A stretch of 36,614 nt of DNA from a virus. The stretch lies in IMG/VR virus record IMGVR_UViG_3300042804_000010; one strand, 5' to 3'. The position numbers were made by a program, and so were the translations under genes. This document shows, piece by piece, positions 1 to 36,614 of this stretch. Positions within the stretch are counted from its first letter, which is position 1, and every line of letters begins with the position of its first letter. A model generated the notes under the pieces. That model made no database searches. It saw nothing but the letters and a program-made list of their open reading frames with translations, and was not told the DNA's origin.

Positions 1-127
1 ATATAACCTTGTTTAACCCACTGGTCATAAGGAATTTTATCTTCTCTGGAACGCTGCTCTAATAAATCTTCTGGCAGCCAATACATAGATAAACAATATA
101 TTGTCGGATCATCTGGAAGCATAAAAA
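1..127. repeat. 127-bp terminal direct repeat identical to 36488-36614 (circularisation overlap of the contig)
   Basis: Direct comparison: window start atataaccttgtttaacccactgg...tggaagcataaaaa reappears at the window end, and the terL reading frame is continuous across it. Confidence 0.9.
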
Positions 128-2640: not shown

Positions 2641-3113
2641 TTTTTTGCATATCCGAGAATTCTTGCTATTTTCTCTATTGCCTGGTCCTTAAAATCATAA
2701 TATTTGTTTCTTCCCCACTCGAATTTTGGGTGAGTATATATGTTCACATCTTTCTCGAATCTTCCTGTCATATACTTTTTTTCCACTACAAATCTTTCTA
2801 TCGTGTCTAGCGCCTTTAGAGCTTCTTCAATTTTTGCTATCATGCACTCTTTACTTCTTAATTCTTCTTTGAGTTCACTTTCATCTCGATTAATTACTGC
2901 ATTTTCTGTAGCTGATCTAAAATCATTGCTGCCTTTAACGTTTACTCCTTCATAACTTACCCCTCGATTTGACTCAATTAATTCGTCTAATTCTATTCTG
3001 ATTACGGCACATCGCTGTTTATATTCTTTGTAGTTAAGCAGCTCCTTAATTACTCTTGAATAATAATCCTGCATCCAATCACCCTTTTTGTTGAAATAGT
3101 TTAGCGAACTCAT
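2637..3113 (-). CDS. Hypothetical protein; position suggests a late-gene transcriptional activator (ArpU/RinA-like), unverified
   Basis: 158-aa ORF, last gene of the early block immediately upstream of the Zn-ribbon/HNH/terS/terL packaging block; assignment is positional only. Confidence 0.3.
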   Translation of the reverse strand: MSSLNYFNKKGDWMQDYYSRVIKELLNYKEYKQRCAVIRIELDELIESNRGVSYEGVNVKGSNDFRSATENAVINRDESELKEELRSKECMIAKIEEALKALDTIERFVVEKKYMTGRFEKDVNIYTHPKFEWGRNKYYDFKDQAIEKIARILGYAKK

Positions 3114-3321
3114 TAAATATTATTTTTTCTAATTCTTCAGTACTATCCGGGATTTCTTTAATTTTAATTGTTATTGGCTCAATCTTTGTAATTAATTCAT
3201 TAGAATGTTTTTCAAAATAAAAAGTTACATTCCAGGAGTCAATAGTTATGCATTCTTTTCTACCGACCATAAACCCAGTAGTATTGGCTGATATTTTAAT
3301 GATTTCAATATTCACCCGCAA
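3079..3321 (-). CDS. Hypothetical protein (80 aa)
   Basis: ORF in the co-directional early gene array, overlapping neighbours by a few codons. Confidence 0.45.
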   Translation of the reverse strand: MRVNIEIIKISANTTGFMVGRKECITIDSWNVTFYFEKHSNELITKIEPITIKIKEIPDSTEELEKIIFNEFAKLFQQKG

Positions 3322-3566
3322 TCACCCCTGTTAGTCCTCATTTTAATATCGGTACCTTTGTGTCTTTCCAGCCAATCAGCTTCCTCTTCCCTCAGAAGCT
3401 CATTAATTGGTTTCTCTCTTCCGCATCTAATGCAAGTGCCTTTATTCTTAACACTATCTAATATCATTGTCCTCCGGTTGCAGTGAGGGCAAATAACCGG
3501 CACTTGAATATGGGTTTTAATTCCTTGATATTCACATATCTTTCTGGCTTCGTCAAGCATACTCAA
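3312..3566 (-). CDS. Small zinc-ribbon protein
   Basis: 84-aa ORF with two Cys pairs, ...VICPHCNRR...GTCIRCGRE... Confidence 0.5.
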   Translation of the reverse strand: MSMLDEARKICEYQGIKTHIQVPVICPHCNRRTMILDSVKNKGTCIRCGREKPINELLREEEADWLERHKGTDIKMRTNRGDCG

Positions 3567-4011
3567 CCACCTCTAAATTATCTTCTAATATCCAATAATG
3601 TTCCATGCTATCTAATTTATAATGGATGTAATTGTTGGTAGCAGAGTTTGATAAGCGCCTTTTTATTATTTTCCCTGTTTTCCCTTTGAAGTGACCATCT
3701 TTTATTATTTTCACTTTATCTTCTAAGCTATATTGAAATGTATTTTCTTCAAGATTTTTTTTAGCAAACAATAAAGAAGCCTGCAAAAAGTAAAACTTTT
3801 CAGATGGTCTGCCTCTATGGATTGTTTCAATTTCATTAATAATTCTATCTAATTGCTTTAAGCAAGTTTTTTTAGTCATTATTTCTTTTAAAACCATTTT
3901 AGTTTCTTTAGATATTTTCATTTCCTTAGTTTCATCTAAAAGCTTATCAATCATATTTTCTTGAAATTCTTTCCCGGTCCCCGGGCCAGCACCTTTATTT
4001 CTATCGCCCAT
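3553..4011 (-). CDS. Hypothetical protein
   Basis: Track ORF 3553..4020 begins at TTG abutting AGGAG; ATG at 4011 lies 9 nt after AGGAG and is the more plausible start. Confidence 0.45.
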   Translation of the reverse strand: MGDRNKGAGPGTGKEFQENMIDKLLDETKEMKISKETKMVLKEIMTKKTCLKQLDRIINEIETIHRGRPSEKFYFLQASLLFAKKNLEENTFQYSLEDKVKIIKDGHFKGKTGKIIKRRLSNSATNNYIHYKLDSMEHYWILEDNLEVVEYA

Positions 4012-4789: not shown

Positions 4790-5623
4790 TCACGGATAAA
4801 CAATAGCCTCGACATGATATTTTTTCTTAAATGATTTCCAGCCCATCTGATGAGCTTTATTGTGATATTCAGCTGATAAACATATTTTCTTTAGATTGCT
4901 ATCATCTAACTTTTGTCTGTTTTGCCCCATTCCTATTGCATCAGCATGATGAATATGAACTATTTCACCTGAATTGTCTATATAATAGTTTTTGCCTGGC
5001 TTAGTACTGACAGCACATATTTTCTTATCCAGGCACATTCTTAGCCATCTATCCAGACTGTCTAATCTCTTCCTGGGGTTTTCTTTCCACTCTACTCCCA
5101 GCTCATAACCTAGCCTTATCGCAAAATCTATAAAATCAATTGCTGCTTTCTTAGAACAATCGGATAAACTTATTCTTCCATGCTCAGAGACCTCAGCAAA
5201 CCTCATAACCAGAGCCTCTTTCATTTCTTCCTTTTCATACCCTATTGAGTTACCCATATCTTCAATGACAGCAAATGCTTTATTTCTCTGACTGTTAGTT
5301 ATCATATTCATTAACCTTTGCTGCTCTTTTTTATTTATTTCAAACTTTACTCTGATTTCTTCCATCTCTTTGAATTTTGGTCCAACATTAATCAAAATCC
5401 TTTTACTGTCTTTCCCAGTTATCAATATAACTTCATGATCTCCATTAGCCAACTGTTCTATATTTTTGATTTTAGCTGAGGCCAGGGCCATCTGATTGAA
5501 GTTCACAATTAATGGTTTATCTTCAAATTTATCAAATCCATCTGGTATATCTTTTATGATCAGGCTTACTACTCCTGAGTTTTTTCTAGTCTTCCATTTT
5601 TTTAAGCTGCATCTAAATATCAT
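4790..5623 (-). CDS. Hypothetical early protein with C-terminal His-rich (HNH-like?) motif
   Basis: Track ORF 4790..5644; ATG at 5623 is preceded by GAAGGAGG; C-terminus has IVHIHHADAIG...EYHNKAH. Function unresolved. Confidence 0.45.
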   Translation of the reverse strand: MIFRCSLKKWKTRKNSGVVSLIIKDIPDGFDKFEDKPLIVNFNQMALASAKIKNIEQLANGDHEVILITGKDSKRILINVGPKFKEMEEIRVKFEINKKEQQRLMNMITNSQRNKAFAVIEDMGNSIGYEKEEMKEALVMRFAEVSEHGRISLSDCSKKAAIDFIDFAIRLGYELGVEWKENPRKRLDSLDRWLRMCLDKKICAVSTKPGKNYYIDNSGEIVHIHHADAIGMGQNRQKLDDSNLKKICLSAEYHNKAHQMGWKSFKKKYHVEAIVYP

Positions 5624-6592: not shown

Positions 6593-6832
6593 TTAATTCG
6601 GATTTTTTAAATCCCAAAGAGATACAAAACCTACCTCTTCTGGCCTAACAGTTGTAAATCTAGCAGCTTCACATTCTTTTTTATCTATTCTTTTCGCATA
6701 CTTAATTTTTGCTTTATAGGAATTTCCAGCTTTTACTATTCCCATAGAATATATTACTGGTTTTTCACCGGCTCTTTTTTGATAATCTAGCACTATATAT
6801 ATTGGTTTTGGGTTTTGCTTAGAACGGAACAT
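6593..6832 (-). CDS. Hypothetical protein
   Basis: Track ORF 6593..6871 overlaps the SSB 3' end; ATG at 6832 lies 9 nt after GAGGGGG. Confidence 0.4.
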   Translation of the reverse strand: MFRSKQNPKPIYIVLDYQKRAGEKPVIYSMGIVKAGNSYKAKIKYAKRIDKKECEAARFTTVRPEEVGFVSLWDLKNPN

Positions 6833-7340
6833 CGAAATCATCCCCCTCAAAGTTATCGTTATACTGTTCATTTACTTGCCGGCCGTTGTTTTTGCTATTA
6901 GATTGCTGGCTATTATTCTTAGAGTGCTGGCCGTTAGAATGCTGGCCCGGTCCCTGGGTTTTACTTTGCTGCTTATTCCCTTTAGCTTGTGAATTATTTC
7001 TCTGATTGTTATTGTTTGCAAAGTCTAAGAATCGGACATTATCTGCATTTACTTCCGGATTAATATAAGTTCTATTGTTATTTTCACTCTTTCTAATCTG
7101 CATGCTGCCATCTACTCCGACAAGCCTTCCTTTACCAAGATGCCTGGCGCAATTTTCTGCCAGACCCCTCCAGGTGACTATGTTAATGAAATCTACATCT
7201 CTATCACCATTGCCATTAGTATAATTTCTTTCTACTGCCAGTGTGAAGTTACAGACTGGGGTTCCATTGCTGGTATATCTAAGTTCAGGATCTTTGGTTA
7301 AGCGGCCTATTAATACAATTCTATTTAATATTTTCACCAT
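6819..7340 (-). CDS. ssb: Single-stranded DNA-binding protein
   Basis: N-terminal OB-fold pattern NRIVLIGRLTKDPELRYTSNGTPVCNFTLAV...IVTWRGLAEN; Q/N/S-rich linker; acidic C-terminal tail DDFDVPF. Confidence 0.85.
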   Translation of the reverse strand: MVKILNRIVLIGRLTKDPELRYTSNGTPVCNFTLAVERNYTNGNGDRDVDFINIVTWRGLAENCARHLGKGRLVGVDGSMQIRKSENNNRTYINPEVNADNVRFLDFANNNNQRNNSQAKGNKQQSKTQGPGQHSNGQHSKNNSQQSNSKNNGRQVNEQYNDNFEGDDFDVPF

Positions 7341-9416: not shown

Positions 9417-10160
9417 TCACTCCTTAAATCTATCCCAGTCTTCTATGAAATGGTCTTTCCACTTATAGTCGCAATTATCAGGACTGTCTTTGTTTTTAGC
9501 ATTTTTAGCAGCTGTCTTAAGATCGTCAATATCTTCAATGCCTTTTTGGGTCCAATCGTTCAATACTGCTCGACAATATGCCAGGGGTTTATCTTTTTCG
9601 ACTGAAATCTTGCAGGCTTTCAAAATTACTGCCTCTGACATTTGCTGCAGGTAGTTTTCGAACTTATCCACATTTTCTTCAAAGAAAATTTTGAATTTCT
9701 TTTTCTTATTTTCATTATTTTTCATTATTAAATCATTATTAACATTATTGTTTGTGTGTTTTTGATGTGTTTTTGATGTGTTTTGGTTATGCTTTTGATA
9801 TGTTTTTGCGTCGTTTTTACAATTATCTAAACCTTGATAATCGCTATAATTTAGCACCTTAACGACCGTCTTTTTAGTGTCGCTTTTATAACTTATCATT
9901 TCTTGATTGGTCAAAAGTTTTAGAAAGTTTTTAACTTTTGTATTTGACCAACCCCAGCGATCACAAAGTTTTCTAATTGAAGTTATCATTTCCCCTGGCT
10001 CGACCTTTACAACTTCATTCCCCAGCAGAACTTCATTTTCTTTATGATTAACCGAAAGCAGTATATCTATCCAAGCTTGACCTTTCGCAAAAGGTTTATC
10101 CTGCCAGAGAATATTATTCTGCATTTTTCTATGAAGAGAAATCCATCCTTGAGCTCCCAC
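9417..10160 (-). CDS. Replication protein (phage replisome organiser / DnaD-like)
   Basis: N-terminus GWISLHRKMQNNILWQDKPFAKGQAWIDILL...; C-terminus ...AYCRAVLNDWTQKGIEDIDDL resembles a DnaD-type domain; central low-complexity linker is encoded by the iteron-like repeats. Confidence 0.55.
   Translation of the reverse strand: MGAQGWISLHRKMQNNILWQDKPFAKGQAWIDILLSVNHKENEVLLGNEVVKVEPGEMITSIRKLCDRWGWSNTKVKNFLKLLTNQEMISYKSDTKKTVVKVLNYSDYQGLDNCKNDAKTYQKHNQNTSKTHQKHTNNNVNNDLIMKNNENKKKKFKIFFEENVDKFENYLQQMSEAVILKACKISVEKDKPLAYCRAVLNDWTQKGIEDIDDLKTAAKNAKNKDSPDNCDYKWKDHFIEDWDRFKE
9756..9820. repeat. Iteron-like tandem repeats (about 6 copies of an 11-bp unit gtgtttttgat), candidate origin
   Basis: Two perfect tandem copies at 9756-9766 and 9767-9777, followed by degenerate copies gtgttttggtt, atgcttttgat, atgtttttgcg, tcgtttttac; lies inside the linker of the replication gene. 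Confidence 0.55.
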
Positions 10161-12369: not shown

Positions 12370-12582
12370 TTAGCTGTACTCTATTTCTAAAAAAAGACGA
12401 CTGATCGGAATTTGCAACTCATCAGAAACTTTCCTGAGCGTTTCAATAGATGGGTTACTATCTCCTCTTTCTATCGCTGCTATAGTTGAATGTGCTAACC
12501 CTATCCGGCGTGCCAACTCTCGCTGGCTCCATTCTAAATCTTCTCTATATTTTTTTATAGCCAGCCCGATGTGTTTATCCAT
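12370..12582 (-). CDS. Cro-like XRE-family HTH regulator
   Basis: 70-aa ORF ...WSQRELARRIGLAHSTIAAIERGDSNPSIETLRKV...; divergent from the cI-like gene. Confidence 0.75.
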   Translation of the reverse strand: MDKHIGLAIKKYREDLEWSQRELARRIGLAHSTIAAIERGDSNPSIETLRKVSDELQIPISRLFLEIEYS

Positions 12583-12650
12583 TTTATCACCTCCAAAAAT
12601 CTCGGAATAATCTCTAAAAATTCTCGAAAAATAGCTCTAACTTGTTTATC

Positions 12651-12845: not shown

Positions 12846-13490
12846 ATGACATTAGGTGAAAAGATTAGAGAACTAAGGACAAAAAAGGGCTATTCTCTTC
12901 GAAAATTGTCGAAAATAGTTGGTTCTGCTTCTCACTCCTATATTGCCGCTATAGAACGTGGCGAAAATAACCCATCATTAAACATATTGTCAGATATCGC
13001 AAATGTTCTTGGAGTATCAACAGCTTATTTATTGGACATTTATGATAAAGAAAAGTCTGGAAATGAAAAGTTTAAGATTGATGAACATTCAGGGGAGATT
13101 TCAAAAGAGGAGATGATTAGTGTGCCGATTGTCGGAGATGTAGCAGCAGGTGAACCAATACTCGCAGACGAACATATAGAAGGATATAGACAAATGCCCG
13201 CAAAAGACATCAATGGGGAATGTTTTTTGCTCAAAATTAAAGGCGATAGCATGATCAATGCAGGGATTCATGAAAACGATTTGGTATTAATCAGACAGCA
13301 GGCAAAAGTTGAGACCGGAGATATTGCAGCTGTAATGATTGATAATGAAAATGCGACATTAAAAAGAGTTTATTTTCATGACAATTCAGTTTTGCTGCAG
13401 TCTGAAAACTTGAAATATAAGCCGATGAATATTAATAATGAAAGAGTTAAAATTATTGGTAAAGCAATAGAAGTTATTCACAAACTATAA
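12846..13490 (+). CDS. CI-like repressor (N-terminal XRE HTH plus C-terminal S24/LexA-like peptidase domain)
   Basis: N-terminus LRKLSKIVGSASHSYIAAIERGENNPSLNIL; C-terminus ...PIVGDVAAGEPILA...KGDSMINAGI...KRVY with Ser/Lys dyad spacing typical of autocleaving repressors. Confidence 0.8.
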   Translation: MTLGEKIRELRTKKGYSLRKLSKIVGSASHSYIAAIERGENNPSLNILSDIANVLGVSTAYLLDIYDKEKSGNEKFKIDEHSGEISKEEMISVPIVGDVAAGEPILADEHIEGYRQMPAKDINGECFLLKIKGDSMINAGIHENDLVLIRQQAKVETGDIAAVMIDNENATLKRVYFHDNSVLLQSENLKYKPMNINNERVKIIGKAIEVIHKL

Positions 13491-14476: not shown

Positions 14477-15622
14477 ATGCCTCATATTGAAAAAACTGCA
14501 AATGGAAAGTATAAAGCTGTCATTGAAGTTGGCGCCGGCGCCAGGCGAAAAAGAAGAACAAAAACATTCGAAAGAAAAAAAGATGCAAAAAGCTGGCAAG
14601 CTAATATGTTAGTTGATCAAGAAAAAGGCAGATATGTTTCTTCCGCATCATTAACTGTCGGTGATCATATGCTTGACTGGCTGGATAACGAGAAGAAACC
14701 GCACATCGCCACAACTACTTATGATAATTACAAAAACCGTATAAAAACTTATATTATACCCGAAATAGGATATATTCCATTGCAGGAACTGGAGCCCTTC
14801 CATATTAGCCGATTTATGGGCTATTTAAGAAAGAATGGAAGTGTCAGGAATGATGGCGGCCTGTCTGAAAATACTCTCAAGAAAATATATGTAGTGCTTA
14901 ATTCAGCGATGGAAAAGGCAGTCCAGTGGCGGTTAATAAAATATAACCCAGTCCAGGCGATTGAATCACCACAACCGAAAAAGAAAGAAGCTAAGTCAAT
15001 GAGCTTTGAGGAAGTTCAAAAATTACTTGATTCAGTTAACGATAAATTTATGCACACATTTTTGAGTTTTGCTGTCCTTACCGGAATGAGAAAAAGTGAA
15101 ATGCTTGGCCTAGAGTGGTCAGAAGTTGATTTAGAGAATGAAACTGTCGAAGTAAAAAAGCGATTAGTTGTTAATCAAAATAGTGATCAGGGAATTGAGC
15201 ATGAAGAAGCGACAAAGCGAGAAGCCAGCAGAAGAGTGATTGCGATTCCTTCGAAACTGGCAAAAATATTGAAAAATTATAAGGTCCATCAAACAGAATT
15301 AAGGCTGCAGCTGGCGGATGAATATAATGATGAAAAGCAATTTGTTTTCTGTAAGTCTGACGGGAATCCTTATTATCCGTCAACAATTACTAGAAATGCA
15401 AAAAAGGCCATACTCAGAGCTGATTTAAGCTCCGAATACAGCCTTCATACATTGCGCCATACATTCGCTACCTTGCAACTTAAAACCGGGACAGATGCCA
15501 AAACTATACAAGAAATGCTCGGTCATGGGAATATCTCCACTACTATGGATATATACTCTCATGTTGATATTGACATGCAGAAAGAAGCCGCAAAGAAATT
15601 AGAAAATGAGATTGTTATTTAG
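14477..15622 (+). CDS. int: Tyrosine integrase (site-specific recombinase)
   Basis: C-terminal catalytic pattern ...HTLRHTFATLQL...LGHGNISTTMDIYSHV (R...HxxR...Y) and N-terminal SAM-like domain. Confidence 0.85.
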   Translation: MPHIEKTANGKYKAVIEVGAGARRKRRTKTFERKKDAKSWQANMLVDQEKGRYVSSASLTVGDHMLDWLDNEKKPHIATTTYDNYKNRIKTYIIPEIGYIPLQELEPFHISRFMGYLRKNGSVRNDGGLSENTLKKIYVVLNSAMEKAVQWRLIKYNPVQAIESPQPKKKEAKSMSFEEVQKLLDSVNDKFMHTFLSFAVLTGMRKSEMLGLEWSEVDLENETVEVKKRLVVNQNSDQGIEHEEATKREASRRVIAIPSKLAKILKNYKVHQTELRLQLADEYNDEKQFVFCKSDGNPYYPSTITRNAKKAILRADLSSEYSLHTLRHTFATLQLKTGTDAKTIQEMLGHGNISTTMDIYSHVDIDMQKEAAKKLENEIVI

Positions 15623-18237: not shown

Positions 18238-19332
18238 CTATATGCTTTTTAATTTTAGCCGGTCGCCTAAATCCAATTGCTCCAGTATATGATCATCTAG
18301 TTTGTTTATCACTGACATTTTTAAATTATAACTATCGCAATGTTTAATTATTCCCAAGTAGGAATTAACACTGGCATTAATATCCTCGATATCCACCTTC
18401 CCTTCAAAATATTTTTTATTAAGATATTTAAATCGCTTTTTCATTTTCTTTTTAGTACTTTTCCTCAATTTGCTATAACTCGGATATAGAACATATCCGC
18501 AAAAATCTATTCCTTCATTCACATGTCCAACAGTAGTTTTATTATTAAGCTGCAGCTGGAGATAATCTTCTAAAAATATTTCTATTTCCTGTCTGATTGT
18601 ATGAAGCTTCTTTTTATCTTTTCCCAAAAGTACAAAGTCATCCATATACCGGACATAGTATTTTACTTTCAAGGTGTGCTTTACAAACTTATCTAAAAAA
18701 TCAAGATAAATATTTGCAAAAAGCTGGCTCATTAAGTTGCCGATTGGTGTGCCAATCCCTTTAACTTTTTTATTTTCAAAGAAGTGATCACCTAACTGGA
18801 TACCAAACTCACCATCTTCACTTTTGATTATCTGCCAGATTAATTCCAATGTATCTCTGCAGCTAATTTTCCTTTTTATTAACTGAAATAATCTTTTATG
18901 AACTATCCTGTAAAAATATTTTGAAACGTCTGCTTTTAAAAAATATGTTTTTCCGGGCTTTCGGTCCATTATCCTTAACTTGTCCTGTAATTGATATGCA
19001 GTGAAATGAGTACCCTTTCCTCTGCGACAAGCCCCGCTATATCTGTAAAATGCCTTATCAAATATCGGGTAAAGCTTTCGATATATGCTCCACTGGACCA
19101 CTCTGTCTTTAAAAGGCAAAGCCATGATCAGTCTTTTCTTTGGCTCATAGACATAAAACTGCCTGTATTTTCCCTGTTCATATGTTTTCCACATTAATTC
19201 ATTCTGTATCTCAATTAAATTTCTCTCTAAATTATAATTAAATTTCAGCACTTCCGGTTTGTATCTTTTCCTCTTTTGAGCTTTTTGAGTTGCTATTTCT
19301 AAATTATGATAATCAGTAATTTTCTCAAACAA
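18238..19332 (-). CDS. Diversity-generating retroelement reverse transcriptase
   Basis: RT motifs FYVYEPKKRLIMALPFKDRVVQ, GTHFTAY, IGTPIGNLMSQLFANIYL (DGR-type SQ in place of the usual QGxxxSP), YVRYMDDFVLLG (YxDD); about 360 aa, as for Bordetella phage Brt; apparent TTG start at 19332. Confidence 0.9.
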   Translation of the reverse strand: MFEKITDYHNLEIATQKAQKRKRYKPEVLKFNYNLERNLIEIQNELMWKTYEQGKYRQFYVYEPKKRLIMALPFKDRVVQWSIYRKLYPIFDKAFYRYSGACRRGKGTHFTAYQLQDKLRIMDRKPGKTYFLKADVSKYFYRIVHKRLFQLIKRKISCRDTLELIWQIIKSEDGEFGIQLGDHFFENKKVKGIGTPIGNLMSQLFANIYLDFLDKFVKHTLKVKYYVRYMDDFVLLGKDKKKLHTIRQEIEIFLEDYLQLQLNNKTTVGHVNEGIDFCGYVLYPSYSKLRKSTKKKMKKRFKYLNKKYFEGKVDIEDINASVNSYLGIIKHCDSYNLKMSVINKLDDHILEQLDLGDRLKLKSI

Positions 19333-19586
19333 ATTTTTGACTGTCTTAGGAATAAATAATCACCACTCTCTATATATTAGGTGAAATATTCAAGCCCGCT
19401 CAAATGAGAACGGGCTCATAACTAATCGTGACAGCTTTCGATATTTCGCTACTTGCTATCTAATTAGTAATTCATATGTTTTCCTGGAGGGACCTCAAAA
19501 TGTATCTCAGGAAGGACTAAAGGCCTGTTCATCTTTTTGAACACTGCAGCAGAGGCCTTGACCCCATACTGTCTGATAAATTTGTA

Positions 19587-19703
19587 GATGAGCACAGGCG
19601 CCACGCACGCCAATGTTAGTGTTCACGTTCCACGGGTTATTGTTCGAGTTGACCGTCCGAGCACCGCAGATGCTACCATTGTTGAAGTTGCCACCGGCGA
19701 GGA
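19587..19703 (-). repeat. DGR template repeat (TR), 117 bp
   Basis: 102 of 117 positions identical to VR (20143-20259); all 15 differences are at TR adenines on the coding strand; carries 11 AAY codons in the VR frame. Confidence 0.9.
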
Positions 19704-19727
19704 CCAACGCCCTTAGCCCTATAAAAT

Positions 19728-20081
19728 TTATTTTTTATTTTCACAAGACTTAATCCAGCCACCCAGAAGGCGGCCAATTTCGTCTATTTTTTTGACTACA
19801 ATTTCATGTTTTCTTATAGATAAAAAATGCATATCTTTAGCAAGTCTAATTTTAACTTTTAGCTTTTTAAGTTCATCATCTATCCGGTTTAAAAATCTTA
19901 TCTTACTTCCTCGAGCTTCATTTGCATCTATTATCAATTCCATAATTCTATCTAATTTATTTTTGATTTTTGTACACATTGCAAACTTTTCTCTTTTTGG
20001 AAAATTATCAATTACTGGGTAAAAATAAAGAGTAAAGTCATAATGTTTTCTAAATATCACGAGATCATCTGTGTCTGCCAA
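19728..20081 (-). CDS. avd: DGR accessory variability determinant (Avd)
   Basis: 117-aa basic helical protein located between the target gene and TR, as in canonical DGRs; TTG start preceded by AAGGAG with a 7-nt spacer. Confidence 0.75.
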   Translation of the reverse strand: MADTDDLVIFRKHYDFTLYFYPVIDNFPKREKFAMCTKIKNKLDRIMELIIDANEARGSKIRFLNRIDDELKKLKVKIRLAKDMHFLSIRKHEIVVKKIDEIGRLLGGWIKSCENKK

Positions 20082-20131
20082 ATCATCACTCCTTCAAGTT
20101 CTAAACCTAACCAAAAACCATTATCAGATTA

Positions 20132-21169
20132 TCAGGCACTCTGATGAGCACAGGCGCCACGCACGCCAACGCTAGTGTTCACGTCCCACGGGCGAAAGTC
20201 CGAGCTGACCGTCCGAGCACCGCAGAGGCCACCACTGCTGAAGCCGCCACCGGCGAGGAGGCCAATAATAGCCACATTATTTTGCATGTAAGCTTCACCA
20301 TGCTGATAACCGCTGTCTTTACCTGCATTAAGCACATCATACCAACTGAATGAAGTTGAGCCAGTATTTCTATAAGTATACTCGTCTAATCTTTCCCAAA
20401 GGTTACCAGCGCAATCTACAAGGTTATAGCAAGAAACTGCTTGTTCTACAGTTCCAGTTGAAGTTCGACCTGAATTACTTGAACTAGACCAAGCGGCATT
20501 ATTATCATTTTCGTGGCCTTCTGGGCTACCATAGGCAGCCATTAACCATTCCTGCCTGGTTAATTTTCTTTTGTTGACATTTGCAAGACCCCTAATGAAA
20601 TCATAATCATTATAACCCTCAGTTCCTGAGACCGGGGTCGCATTGTATTCACTCACAAGTTCAGTTTCCGGCCAGGTTCCGCTGCCTTCACTTGCAATAT
20701 ATATATCAGCCCAAAAGTTTGATACCTTGACCATTCCAGTAGGGTCACAGGCAGGTCTGTAGTTCAATGACCAGACTGAGTTTGGCAGTATATTAACTGC
20801 AATTGAGGCTGTATCATCATATCTTTGAGCGTTTGTTCTGATGCGGCCATAATGAAAACCACCAATTTTTCTGCTATTATTTTCTGTATACCCGTCTGGA
20901 TAAGTAGAGTTGATAGAAATAACAAAATCGGGCTCTGCATCAGCTGATGGCTGCAAAGCATATATATAATAGTTTTCGCCAAGCGTGAAACTTACAAAAC
21001 TGCCGTCGCTATCAGCTTCAGTCAAAATAGTATCAGTTTCTTTTTTGAGATTCTGTCTATCAATTCTCAAAGCTAATGGAGGTACTGTAACTTCATCAGC
21101 TGCACTCTTTTCAATATGGCCTTTGAAATTGTAGAATGAAGGTGAATCAGCTCCAACAAAAGTTAACAT
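20132..21169 (-). CDS. DGR target protein: distal tail/receptor-binding protein with C-terminal C-type-lectin/FGE-like fold carrying the VR
   Basis: C-terminal ...SCYNLVDCAGNLWERLDEY...LLAGGGFSSGGLCGARTVSSDFRPWDVNTSVGVRGACAHQSA; VR occupies the last about 39 codons; last gene of the tail module. Confidence 0.85.
   Translation of the reverse strand: MLTFVGADSPSFYNFKGHIEKSAADEVTVPPLALRIDRQNLKKETDTILTEADSDGSFVSFTLGENYYIYALQPSADAEPDFVISINSTYPDGYTENNSRKIGGFHYGRIRTNAQRYDDTASIAVNILPNSVWSLNYRPACDPTGMVKVSNFWADIYIASEGSGTWPETELVSEYNATPVSGTEGYNDYDFIRGLANVNKRKLTRQEWLMAAYGSPEGHENDNNAAWSSSSNSGRTSTGTVEQAVSCYNLVDCAGNLWERLDEYTYRNTGSTSFSWYDVLNAGKDSGYQHGEAYMQNNVAIIGLLAGGGFSSGGLCGARTVSSDFRPWDVNTSVGVRGACAHQSA
20143..20259 (-). 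repeat. DGR variable repeat (VR), 117 bp, at the 3' end of the target gene
   Basis: Aligns to TR 19587-19703; the coding-strand 3' end is a GC-rich invariant segment ggcgtgcgtggcgcctgtgctcatc (IMH-like). Confidence 0.9.
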
Positions 21170-36060: not shown

Positions 36061-36614
36061 CTAAATCATGTTTTCATACTCTTGCATTTTGTCTTGGAGT
36101 ATCACATAAGCATTAAGCATTGCAGCTGTACCATCAATTCTTTTTCTTTGATTACGCTGCTTTGCGGGTTGTATATTAAGATTTTTATCTATATCAACTG
36201 AGGTATTACTCAAACACCATTTAGTTATTGGATTGTTGTCATAATTAATTTTATGAGCTTTTAAATCAGCCCCCAGTTGTTTCATTGGTCCTGATAATGT
36301 TTTTTTACCCTGGATAACTGGAATCATTGCTTCTTTACCAAAATGACCTTGCATTTCCTCAACCCAGTAATTAGCACTCCAGGAGTCATAACCAATCCAG
36401 GGAATATAAATATCTAATTCATTTTGGACCTCTAAATACCACCGAGTAACAAATTTCGGATGCACTTTGTTGCCTGGAGTGGTTCTCATATAACCTTGTT
36501 TAACCCACTGGTCATAAGGAATTTTATCTTCTCTGGAACGCTGCTCTAATAAATCTTCTGGCAGCCAATACATAGATAAACAATATATTGTCGGATCATC
36601 TGGAAGCATAAAAA
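36061..36614 (-). CDS. terL: Terminase large subunit, C-terminal (nuclease) portion; 5' part is at 1-1403
   Basis: Track ORF 36061..36609 is in frame with the manually translated ORF ending at window position 1; 36488-36614 duplicates 1-127. Confidence 0.85.
   Translation of the reverse strand, partial: FMLPDDPTIYCLSMYWLPEDLLEQRSREDKIPYDQWVKQGYMRTTPGNKVHPKFVTRWYLEVQNELDIYIPWIGYDSWSANYWVEEMQGHFGKEAMIPVIQGKKTLSGPMKQLGADLKAHKINYDNNPITKWCLSNTSVDIDKNLNIQPAKQRNQRKRIDGTAAMLNAYVILQDKMQEYENMI

What the first reader, a model, noticed from the sequence alone, without database searches (positions are those of the whole stretch)
9756..9820. Iteron-like 11-bp tandem repeats embedded in the replication-initiator gene (candidate origin)
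Two perfect and about four degenerate copies of gtgtttttgat at one-helical-turn periodicity lie inside the low-complexity linker of the DnaD-like replication protein. This resembles lambdoid origins, which sit within the initiator gene.
Basis: partly seen in the sequence, partly recalled or inferred. Interest (0 to 1): 0.6.

Follow-up and report, generated by a model that had tools for sequence, protein, structure and literature searches.

The report
Phage replication origin inside initiator gene
The 11-bp repeats are real and are very probably the initiator-binding sites of this phage's replication origin, built like the experimentally proven oriL of Bacillus phage SPP1, so this is a good annotation but not a new kind of element.

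Summary
Six 11-bp units in exact register at 9756-9821 (11/11, 11/11, 9/11, 9/11, 8/11, 6/11) form the strongest tandem periodicity in this circular 36,487-bp temperate phage genome (score 22; shuffles 8.2±1.2, max 15).

The array lies in gene 9417-10160(-). The N-domain of that protein is 44% identical to G38P, the SPP1 replisome organizer. SPP1 oriL is embedded in gene 38 and consists of G38P-bound iterons ("AB boxes") plus an AT-rich unwinding element.

SPP1 gene 38 has the same layout at the same codons: 11-mer array, conserved junction, 9-mer AAxAATGAx tract. Intergenic SPP1 oriR has it too, so these are DNA elements and not coding by-products.

About 40 relatives share the layout. The iteron sequence follows the N-domain, not the swappable C-domain. 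Iteron DNA is more conserved (88-95%) than N-domain DNA (71-89%), although it encodes a predicted disordered linker. The adjacent tract 9670-9749 (86% AT) is the third least stable stretch in the genome.

Differences from SPP1: a DnaD-type C-domain, no detectable phage helicase or loader, and no second origin.

The parts
9417..10160 (-). Replisome-organizer (initiator) gene, 247 aa. It has a G38P-like N-domain, a disordered linker and a DnaD-type (DnaB_2) C-domain.
   Evidence: ORF list. PF07261 DnaB_2 at aa 171-216. phrog_2514/186 'DnaD-like helicase loader'. 44% identity over 137 aa to SPP1 G38P, E 9e-37. AlphaFold domain layout.
9825..10160 (-). Coding region of the N-terminal domain (aa 1-112), the predicted winged-helix origin-binding domain.
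   Evidence: pLDDT 80-97. Fold-search local hits are all winged-helix DNA-binding domains (CodY-C, CRP, SmtB, MarR; about 50 residues at 2.3-2.6 A, E 0.02-0.1). 48% identity to G38P in tblastn. No curated Pfam or NCBIfam model covers it.
9756..9821 (.). Iteron array of six 11-bp units in register. The unit is GTGTTTTTGAT on the + strand and ATCAAAAACAC on the gene's sense strand. These are the candidate initiator-binding sites, equivalent to the SPP1 'AB boxes'.
   Evidence: existence and significance. (homologous arrays in relatives and at SPP1 oriL and oriR). (88-95% DNA identity to relatives, against 71-89% for the N-domain).
9741..9757 (.). Conserved junction between the iterons and the AT tract. 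On the sense strand it reads CACACAAACAATAATG and encodes the nearly invariant K-H-T-N-N-N.
   Evidence: Conserved across the family and in non-coding SPP1 oriR. K134, H135, T136, N137 and N139 are invariant or nearly so, although they lie in the disordered linker.
9696..9749 (.). AT-rich repeat tract made of about 9-bp units (AATAATGAx on the sense strand, CATTATT on the + strand). It is the core of the candidate DNA unwinding element.
   Evidence: TRF period 9-11 at 9700-9749. 85-88% AT. The same 9-mers are in SPP1 oriL, in intergenic oriR and in about 40 relatives.
9670..9749 (.). Low-stability duplex region (candidate DUE, full extent).
   Evidence: By nearest-neighbour free energy it is the third least stable 60-bp and 80-bp window in the 36,487-bp genome (z = 2.9). 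It is the only one of the top three inside a gene.
9417..9689 (-). Coding region of the C-terminal DnaD-type helical domain. It is the presumed interface with the host helicase-loading machinery and is a swappable module.
   Evidence: PF07261 and TIGR01446 hits. PDB 2i5u 'DnaD domain protein', E 0.011. Relatives with the same N-domain and iterons carry unrelated C-domains.
9664..9672 (+). The single perfect DnaA-box 9-mer (TTATCCACA) in the genome, at the distal edge of the AT-rich tract. Its significance is uncertain.
   Evidence: the only perfect match; no overall enrichment. (retained only in near-identical C-module DNA and absent from all other relatives).

Best explanation
The repeat array is the initiator-binding part of the phage's theta-replication origin, an SPP1 oriL-type origin embedded in the replisome-organizer gene.

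Proposed mechanism:
1. The early leftward operon expresses the 247-aa organizer.
2. Its N-terminal winged-helix domain binds cooperatively to the 11-bp iterons at 9756-9821. These are spaced about one helical turn apart and each carries an A-tract, so bound protein lies on roughly one face of a probably curved DNA.
3. The nucleoprotein complex, helped by negative supercoiling and SSB (the phage encodes its own at 6819-7340), melts the adjacent 86%-AT tract at 9670-9749.
4. The C-terminal DnaD-type domain recruits the host helicase-loading pathway to the bubble. This differs from SPP1, where G38P recruits the phage's own loader and helicase (G39P/G40P); no helicase or loader was found in this genome.

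The origin is dual-coded. It sits in the one part of the gene that encodes a disordered inter-domain linker, where the peptide sequence is nearly free. It is read in all three frames because 11 is not a multiple of 3.

Shown here: the repeats, their significance, homology to the SPP1 origin and initiator, family-wide conservation, co-inheritance with the N-domain, DNA-level constraint, and low duplex stability.

Inferred: binding, melting, host helicase recruitment, and that initiation actually occurs here in this phage.
For: (1) The array is real and is by far the strongest periodicity in the genome.

(2) The initiator N-domain is homologous to G38P: 44% identity over 137 aa, E 9e-37, and 48% in tblastn.

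(3) SPP1 gene 38 has an 11-mer array of 4.6 copies at nt 360-410 and a 9-mer AACAATGAT array of 3.6 copies at nt 418-449. These are the same codon positions as in the window gene (nt 353-410 and 412-461).

(4) Published work states that oriL is embedded in gene 38. It consists of iterons ('AB boxes') specifically bound by G38P plus an adjacent AT-rich DUE. A 356-bp oriL fragment is necessary and sufficient for theta replication in vitro (PMC5737612; PMC6316719).

(5) A PWM built from the SPP1 11-mers finds only one other cluster in SPP1, at 4807-4909. It is intergenic and 12.9 kb away on the circle, matching published oriR. That site also carries the 9-mers and an AT-rich tail. Both repeat types therefore function as DNA.

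(6) 26 of 35 IMG/VR loci have a period-11 array inside the rep gene under stringent criteria, against 1 in 185 kb of flanks. Cultured phages of Anoxybacillus, Staphylococcus, Clostridium, Vibrio, Sulfitobacter and Pseudomonas show it too.

(7) Iteron sequence tracks the N-domain and not the C-domain. All relatives with at least 76% N-domain identity share AAAAACACATC across three unrelated C-domains. One C-domain class occurs with at least five different iteron consensus sequences.

(8) Iteron and junction DNA is 94/95/88% identical to three relatives. N-domain DNA is 89/81/71% identical, and its third codon positions 77/65/51%.

(9) Copy number differs by three units, 33 bp, between L024 and L025, which keeps the reading frame.

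(10) The segment encodes a predicted disordered linker, pLDDT 30-41.

(11) The AT tract is the third least stable region of the genome and the only one of the top three inside a gene.

(12) In S. aureus phage 80alpha, a more distant G38P homologue plus a DnaC-like loader suffice for autonomous replication (PMC5499656).
Against: There is no experimental evidence for this phage or its host group.

The helicase-recruitment half of the mechanism cannot be copied from SPP1. The C-domain is DnaB_2/DnaD-type and not PF09524, and no G39P/G40P-like genes were found.

The iteron sequence itself differs from SPP1's (CAAAAACACAT against AGAAACGACAC).

Only four or five units are well conserved.

The fold-search support for a winged helix is weak in E-value (0.02-0.1).

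Two stretches between listed ORFs are slightly less stable than the proposed DUE.

Within-array homogeneity could owe something to slippage or unequal exchange as well as to selection.

A few relatives (L034, L018, L009) have weak or degenerate arrays.
Confidence: 0.85

Rival explanations
1. The repeats are bound by the organizer, but their main role is regulatory or structural and not initiation. Examples would be autoregulation of the rep gene by a transcriptional roadblock, or a fork-stalling site that triggers the theta-to-sigma switch, as has been proposed for SPP1 oriR. Initiation would then occur elsewhere.
For: In SPP1, G38P binds two sites, and the second (oriR) is proposed to stall forks and not to fire (PMC3485210 abstract; PMC5499656). 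An initiator bound inside its own gene could plausibly hinder transcription.
Against: The genome is complete and circular, and it has no second iteron cluster. If the organizer initiates anywhere, this is the only candidate site. The array has the full oriL layout, including an adjacent low-stability tract. The positionally homologous SPP1 site is oriL, the one that fires. An added regulatory role is not excluded.
Confidence: 0.07
2. The repeats are a by-product of a low-complexity, N/K/Q/H-rich linker peptide, or of replication slippage in A-rich DNA, and have no cis-acting DNA function.
For: The segment encodes a disordered, compositionally biased linker. The peptide motif QKHTNNN recurs across homologues. 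A/T-rich low-complexity DNA is prone to slippage.
Against: An 11-nt period is read in three different frames, so selection on the peptide cannot create or maintain it. The same 11-mers and 9-mers occur in intergenic SPP1 oriR. The period and position are conserved down to about 30% N-domain identity while the unit sequence changes. The linker DNA is more conserved than the folded-domain DNA. Such arrays are about absent from 185 kb of flanking phage DNA.
Confidence: 0.04
3. The conserved repeats exist mainly as a recombination linker: microhomology that lets phages swap C-terminal helicase-recruitment domains onto N-terminal domains.
For: Module breakpoints fall just 3' of the 9-mer tract. The same N-domain and iterons occur with three unrelated C-domains, and the window's C-domain occurs at 94% identity behind a different N-domain in L003-L005. 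The junction and 9-mer sequence is conserved across very distant phages.
Against: This does not explain the lineage-specific 11-mers, their helical-turn spacing, their recurrence at non-coding oriR, or the experimental origin activity of the SPP1 counterpart. Shuffling at this point is better seen as a consequence of a conserved origin sequence lying between two domains.
Confidence: 0.04

Closest known systems
oriL of Bacillus subtilis phage SPP1 (iterons or 'AB boxes' plus an AT-rich DUE embedded in gene 38, bound by the replisome organizer G38P)
   Same: The N-terminal domain of the initiator is homologous (44-48% identity). The origin is embedded in the initiator gene at the same codon positions. 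The order is the same: an array of about five 11-bp direct repeats, a conserved junction (…ACAAACAA…), a 9-bp AAxAATGAx repeat tract and AT-rich DNA. The iteron core is related (A-tract + CAC).
   Different: The iteron sequence differs (CAAAAACACAT against AGAAACGACAC). The C-terminal domain is DnaB_2/DnaD-type and not PF09524. No G39P-like loader or G40P-like DnaB helicase was found in the genome. There is no second site of the oriR type. The phage is temperate (integrase, S24 repressor) and apparently infects Halanaerobium, whereas SPP1 is a virulent Bacillus phage.
Staphylococcus aureus phage 80alpha ORF20/ORF21 replication module
   Same: It has a G38P-like organizer, and the authors infer that the origin lies in its own gene. 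The phage encodes no replicative helicase and must use the host's (PMC5499656).
   Different: 80alpha has a DnaC-like loader (ORF21) immediately downstream. This window has only small ORFs of unknown function there. The 80alpha origin has not been mapped to specific repeats in the text read.
Origins of P335-type lactococcal phages TP901-1 (orf13) and Tuc2009 (rep2009)
   Same: The replisome organizers bind direct repeats located inside their own genes. Those repeats serve as the ori and give a phage-encoded-resistance phenotype in trans (as summarised in PMC8965321).
   Different: Homology of those organizers or their repeats to this one was not tested here, and the primary papers were not available. 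Treat these as functional analogues.
ori-lambda inside gene O of lambdoid phages
   Same: The origin lies inside the initiator gene, in the region between the N-terminal DNA-binding part and the C-terminal part that recruits helicase-loading functions. It has iterons followed by an AT-rich region (established knowledge; also PMC5499656).
   Different: No similarity to the lambda O family was detected by Pfam. From established knowledge, not tested here, lambda iterons are about 19 bp with internal dyad symmetry and number four. Here the units are 11-bp direct repeats with no dyad. The 80alpha paper calls lambda O 'unrelated' to G38P.

Membership tests
SPP1 oriL-type origin (organizer-gene-embedded iterons + DUE) | The initiator has the G38P origin-binding N-terminal domain | tested here: met
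   BLASTP gives 44% identity over 137 aa, E 9e-37. tblastn gives 48% over 110 aa.
SPP1 oriL-type origin (organizer-gene-embedded iterons + DUE) | An array of direct repeats (iterons or AB boxes) lies inside the initiator gene, just 3' of the N-domain coding region | tested here: met
   Window gene nt 353-410, against SPP1 gene 38 nt 360-410. Both have period 11 and about 4.6-5.4 copies.
SPP1 oriL-type origin (organizer-gene-embedded iterons + DUE) | An AT-rich DNA unwinding element lies next to the iterons | tested here: met
   86-88% AT at 9670-9749, the third least stable region genome-wide. It carries the same 9-mer repeats as SPP1 oriL and oriR. Actual unwinding was not testable.
SPP1 oriL-type origin (organizer-gene-embedded iterons + DUE) | The initiator binds the repeats specifically | not testable with these tools
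   Supported only indirectly, by co-inheritance of iteron sequence with the N-domain and by a winged-helix-like fold.
SPP1 oriL-type origin (organizer-gene-embedded iterons + DUE) | The fragment is necessary and sufficient for initiator-dependent theta replication | not testable with these tools
   Shown for SPP1 only (PMC5737612).
SPP1 replication module (G38P-G39P-G40P) | PF09524 (Phg_2220_C) C-terminal domain on the organizer | tested here: not met
   The window protein has PF07261 DnaB_2 and TIGR01446 instead. G38P has PF09524 and TIGR02220.
SPP1 replication module (G38P-G39P-G40P) | Phage-encoded helicase loader and DnaB-type helicase downstream of the organizer | tested here: not met
   No helicase or loader domains were found among the ORFs scanned: most early-region ORFs and the non-structural ORFs of 345-381 aa in the complete genome. 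Small unknown ORFs could hide a novel loader.
SPP1 replication module (G38P-G39P-G40P) | A second organizer-binding site elsewhere in the genome (oriR) | tested here: not met
   The PWM scan of the complete circular genome finds no second cluster. The best is four weak hits near 25.0 kb.
Lambdoid ori (ori-lambda in gene O) | Initiator of the lambda O family | tested here: not met
   There is no lambda O-family Pfam hit, even at E <= 1 on the N-domain.
Lambdoid ori (ori-lambda in gene O) | Four iterons of about 19 bp with internal dyad symmetry | tested here: not met
   The units are 11-bp direct repeats, and no inverted repeat lies within the array.
DnaD/DnaB_2 domain proteins | PF07261 or TIGR01446 domain above the curated cut-off | tested here: met
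   PF07261 at 30.3 bits (cut-off 22), aa 171-216. TIGR01446 at 25.5 bits (cut-off 24.95).
P335 lactococcal phage origins (TP901-1 orf13, Tuc2009 rep2009) | Homology of the organizer and repeats to ORF13 or Rep2009 | not tested
   Only the functional parallel is documented (PMC8965321). The sequences were not fetched.

The most novel reading that the evidence does not exclude
The N-domain, 11-bp iterons, junction and 9-mer tract together form one portable, dual-coded 'origin cassette' shared by G38P-like organizers of phages infecting Firmicutes, Proteobacteria and probably Bacteroidota. On this reading, the near-invariant K-H-T-N-N-N peptide in a disordered linker is a shadow of DNA-level selection. 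Copy number changes only in 33-bp (three-unit) steps. Phages re-target the cassette to different helicase-loading routes by swapping the C-domain just 3' of it. Here the route is a DnaD-type domain with no phage helicase or loader, that is, wholly host-dependent loading. Such a family-wide rule may not have been set out in the literature.
Probability: 0.3. Interest if true: 0.45.

Novelty: new member of a known kind. Interest (0 to 1): 0.3.

Why it matters
For this genome it gives a confident, precise origin annotation: iterons at 9756-9821 and a DUE at 9670-9749. It also assigns a function to a gene that databases label only 'DnaD domain protein'. Halanaerobium-type anaerobes have few genetic tools. 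An organizer gene that carries its own origin could be the basis of a small shuttle replicon, or of a phage-resistance (PER-type) decoy. More generally, the comparison shows how to find origins in thousands of uncultured Firmicute phages. One looks for an 11-bp array followed by AAxAATGAx 9-mers immediately after the G38P-like N-domain. It also warns that apparent peptide conservation in this linker reflects DNA function. None of this changes current understanding of phage replication.

Tried and rejected
The skew simply mirrors transcription direction, with a reversal only across the + strand lysogeny module at 12.5-16.5 kb. It gives no origin signal.

(2) A second, oriR-like iteron cluster. 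None was found in the complete genome.

(3) The DnaA box at 9664-9672 as part of the origin. It is the only perfect box, but it is retained only in near-identical C-module DNA. It is absent from every other relative, including other DnaB_2-type ones, so there is no independent support.

(4) An internal promoter or operator reading. Promoter-like sites are not enriched (4 against 2.8 +/- 1.7) and there are no terminators.

(5) Sequence search of the PDB for the N-domain. It found nothing; only the C-domain weakly matches a DnaD domain.

(6) Fold search. There is no global match, only local winged-helix hits with weak E-values.

(7) Curated family models for the N-domain. None exists in Pfam or NCBIfam.

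(8) Primary papers on TP901-1 and r1t origins. They are not held in the library.

(9) Near-identical annotated phages. None exists. The best DNA hits are 66-69% identical over the N-domain only.

Full report
**1. The observation**

The window is a circular assembly. Its first 127 nt recur exactly at 36488-36614, giving a unique genome of 36,487 bp. It is a temperate siphovirus-like phage of about 35% GC. It has an S24/LexA-like repressor (12846-13490), a Cro-like HTH (12370-12582), an integrase (14477-15622), an AntA antirepressor, SSB, portal, capsid and tail genes. The closest named relative of the gene in question is a prophage protein of Halanaerobium salsuginis (88% identity).

Tandem Repeats Finder reports a period-11 array at 9751-9808 with 5.4 copies and score 74, the top score in the window. 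In strict register the units start at 9756, 9767, 9778, 9789, 9800 and 9811. They match GTGTTTTTGAT at 11, 11, 9, 9, 8 and 6 of 11 positions. The lag-11 score is 22, against 8.2 +/- 1.2 (maximum 15) in 200 dinucleotide shuffles of the genome. It beats every other lag from 4 to 24.

**2. Where it sits**

The array lies in ORF 9417-10160(-), 247 aa, at codons 114-136. An AlphaFold model built on a 49-sequence alignment shows three parts:
- a confident N-domain (aa 5-110, pLDDT 80-97);
- a segment at pLDDT 30-41 (aa 111-152);
- a helical C-domain (aa 153-223, about 85).

The C-domain is DnaB_2/DnaD-type (PF07261, TIGR01446). Fold search gives no global match. Its high-probability local hits are all winged-helix DNA-binding domains. 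They presumably correspond to the model's helix-helix-hairpin at aa 62-102, although the output lists no aligned query positions. I treat this as suggestive only.

Because 11 is not a multiple of 3, successive units are read in all three frames (…QKH NQN TSK TH QKH…). Selection on the peptide therefore cannot explain the periodicity.

On the sense strand, immediately 3' of the array, comes a junction (CACACAAACAATAATG). After that comes an AT-rich tract of roughly 9-bp units (AATAATGAx; 9696-9749), reaching 88% AT. By nearest-neighbour free energy, 9670-9749 is the third least stable 60-80-bp stretch in the genome. The two stretches above it fall in gaps between listed ORFs.

**3. Homology to a proven origin**

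The N-domain is 44% identical over 137 aa (E 9e-37) to G38P of Bacillus phage SPP1. The literature states the following (PMC6316719; PMC5737612):
- SPP1 oriL is embedded in gene 38.
- It consists of iterons ('AB boxes') specifically bound by G38P, plus an adjacent AT-rich DUE.
- A 356-bp fragment is necessary and sufficient for theta replication reconstituted in vitro.

In the SPP1 sequence I find an 11-bp array of 4.6 copies (AGAAACGACAC) at gene nt 360-410, then a 9-bp array (AACAATGAT, 3.6 copies) at nt 418-449. The window gene has the same order at the same position (nt 353-410 and 412-461).

A PWM built from the SPP1 11-mers finds only one other cluster in SPP1, at 4807-4909, between genes 7 and 8. 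It lies 12.9 kb from oriL on the circle, which matches the published position of oriR, the second G38P-binding site. That site also carries the junction, the 9-mers and an AT-rich tail. Both repeat classes are therefore cis-acting DNA elements that also occur outside coding sequence. A five-way alignment of the window, the H. salsuginis prophage, Staphylococcus phage StB27, SPP1 oriL and SPP1 oriR shows the shared block directly.

**4. Comparative tests**

*Prevalence.* Among 35 IMG/VR loci found with the protein, 26 have a period-11 array of at least 3.4 copies inside the rep gene, under stringent criteria. Only one such array occurs in 185 kb of flanking DNA. Cultured phages of Anoxybacillus, Staphylococcus, Clostridium, Vibrio, Sulfitobacter and Pseudomonas show 11-bp arrays just after the N-domain. 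Lactobacillus iA2, Listeria A118 and a Bacteroides phage show 12-bp ones.

*Sequence divergence.* The unit sequence differs between lineages: CAAAAACACAT, CACAGAAACAT, AAACGACACAG, AAACACAACAG, AGCATCAGGAA, AAGCGACAGTC, GCACCACGAAA. It is homogeneous within each array.

*Co-inheritance.* The iteron follows the N-domain. All relatives with at least 76% N-domain identity share AAAAACACATC, although they carry three unrelated C-domains, one of them followed by a DnaB-type helicase gene. At 73% identity and below the iteron differs. A single C-domain class is found with at least five different iteron consensus sequences. L003-L005 have the window's C-domain at about 94% identity behind a different N-domain (PF14297). 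They carry quite different repeats.

*DNA-level constraint.* Iteron and junction DNA is 94, 95 and 88% identical to three relatives. Their N-domain DNA is 89, 81 and 71% identical, and the third codon positions 77, 65 and 51%. The reverse would be expected for a mere disordered linker.

*Copy number.* L024 and L025 differ by three units, 33 bp, which preserves the reading frame.

**5. Mechanism**

The best-supported reading is an SPP1 oriL-type origin. The organizer's N-domain binds the phased iterons. The complex, with supercoiling and SSB, melts the adjacent AT tract. The C-domain brings in helicase-loading functions.

The last step must differ from SPP1. The C-domain is DnaD-type and not PF09524. 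Pfam and PHROG scans found no loader or helicase among the ORFs scanned, which were most of the early region and the non-structural ORFs of 345-381 aa. Host-dependent loading is therefore inferred. This is comparable to 80alpha, which also lacks a helicase but does have a DnaC-like loader (PMC5499656). No second iteron cluster of the oriR type exists.

Binding, melting and firing at this site are inferences. Everything else above was shown directly.

**6. Rivals**

- *Peptide or slippage by-product.* This is contradicted by the frame argument, by non-coding oriR, by the conservation pattern and by the low background rate.
- *Purely regulatory or fork-stalling binding site.* This cannot be excluded as an additional role. 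It fails as the sole role because this is the only iteron site in a complete genome and it has the full oriL layout.
- *Recombination linker.* This fits the breakpoints but not the lineage-specific iterons or the SPP1 experiments. It is better seen as a consequence of the origin's position.
- *Internal promoter.* Promoter-like sites are not enriched.
- *DnaA box at 9664-9672.* It is the only perfect box in the genome, but it lacks independent comparative support.

**7. Comparison and novelty**

The feature meets the testable defining features of an SPP1 oriL-type origin: a homologous initiator N-domain, in-gene iterons at the homologous position, and an adjacent AT-rich element. It does not meet the features of the full SPP1 replication module: a PF09524 C-domain, the G39P/G40P genes, and oriR.

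It is analogous, not homologous, to ori-lambda. It is functionally parallel to the TP901-1 and Tuc2009 origins (PMC8965321).

It is a new member of a known kind, with a variant helicase-recruitment module.

Interest is modest. The family-wide dual-coding pattern is tidy and useful for annotation and for vector building, but it would not surprise a phage-replication specialist.

Noticed in passing
window 18238-21169 (RT 18238-19332 -, TR 19587-19703, VR 20143-20259, Mtd-like gene 20132-21169 -): A diversity-generating retroelement. It has a reverse transcriptase (PF00078), an Mtd-like target protein (PF21916) and a 117-nt template/variable repeat pair at 87% identity. All 15 differences fall at template adenines (A>G 11, A>C 2, A>T 2). 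The variable repeat is at the 3' end of the Mtd-like gene.
   Followed up: partly
window 1-127 and 36488-36614: An exact 127-nt terminal overlap. The window is a circularised assembly of a 36,487-bp genome, so whole-genome statements (no second origin, no helicase found) are possible.
   Followed up: yes
window 9664-9672 (+): The only perfect DnaA-box 9-mer (TTATCCACA) in the genome, at the far edge of the AT-rich tract and at the 5' edge of the DnaD-type C-module. It is retained in L001-L005 and L048, which are near-identical there. L003 and L005 add a convergent one-mismatch box 5 bp upstream. It is absent from all other relatives. It could be chance or a host-DnaA link.
   Followed up: partly
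L024 3342-3401 vs L025 3342-3434: Two related phages differ by exactly three iterons (5.5 against 8.5 copies, 33 bp). L025 shows a perfect 33-bp super-repeat. Copy number appears to change only in frame-preserving triplets of units.
   Followed up: partly
L003 2863-2970, L005 2848-2970: These organizers have a different N-domain (PF14297) but the window's C-domain at about 94% identity. Their own linker carries different in-gene repeats: a 21-bp unit x2.6, and AAAGT x8-11 (15-bp super-unit). This suggests a second, non-homologous organizer family also keeps its origin in the linker.
   Followed up: no
window 12591-12632: A period-11 degenerate array (CTCGAAAAATT, 3.9 copies) in the divergent region between the Cro-like gene and the S24 repressor gene. 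These are probably operator sites of the lysis-lysogeny switch.
   Followed up: no
window 9825-10160 (-) and SPP1 gene 38 N-terminal third: The origin-binding N-domain shared with G38P is not covered by any Pfam or NCBIfam model. The literature's family label for G38P (pfam09524) describes only its C-domain, so homologues with other C-domains get annotated simply as 'DnaD domain protein' or 'hypothetical'.
   Followed up: yes
L034 (gene 2995-3636), L018, L009/L013: A few relatives have weak, 22-bp-period or barely detectable arrays after the N-domain. L034 also lacks the 9-mer tract. These may be degenerate or relocated origins.
   Followed up: no
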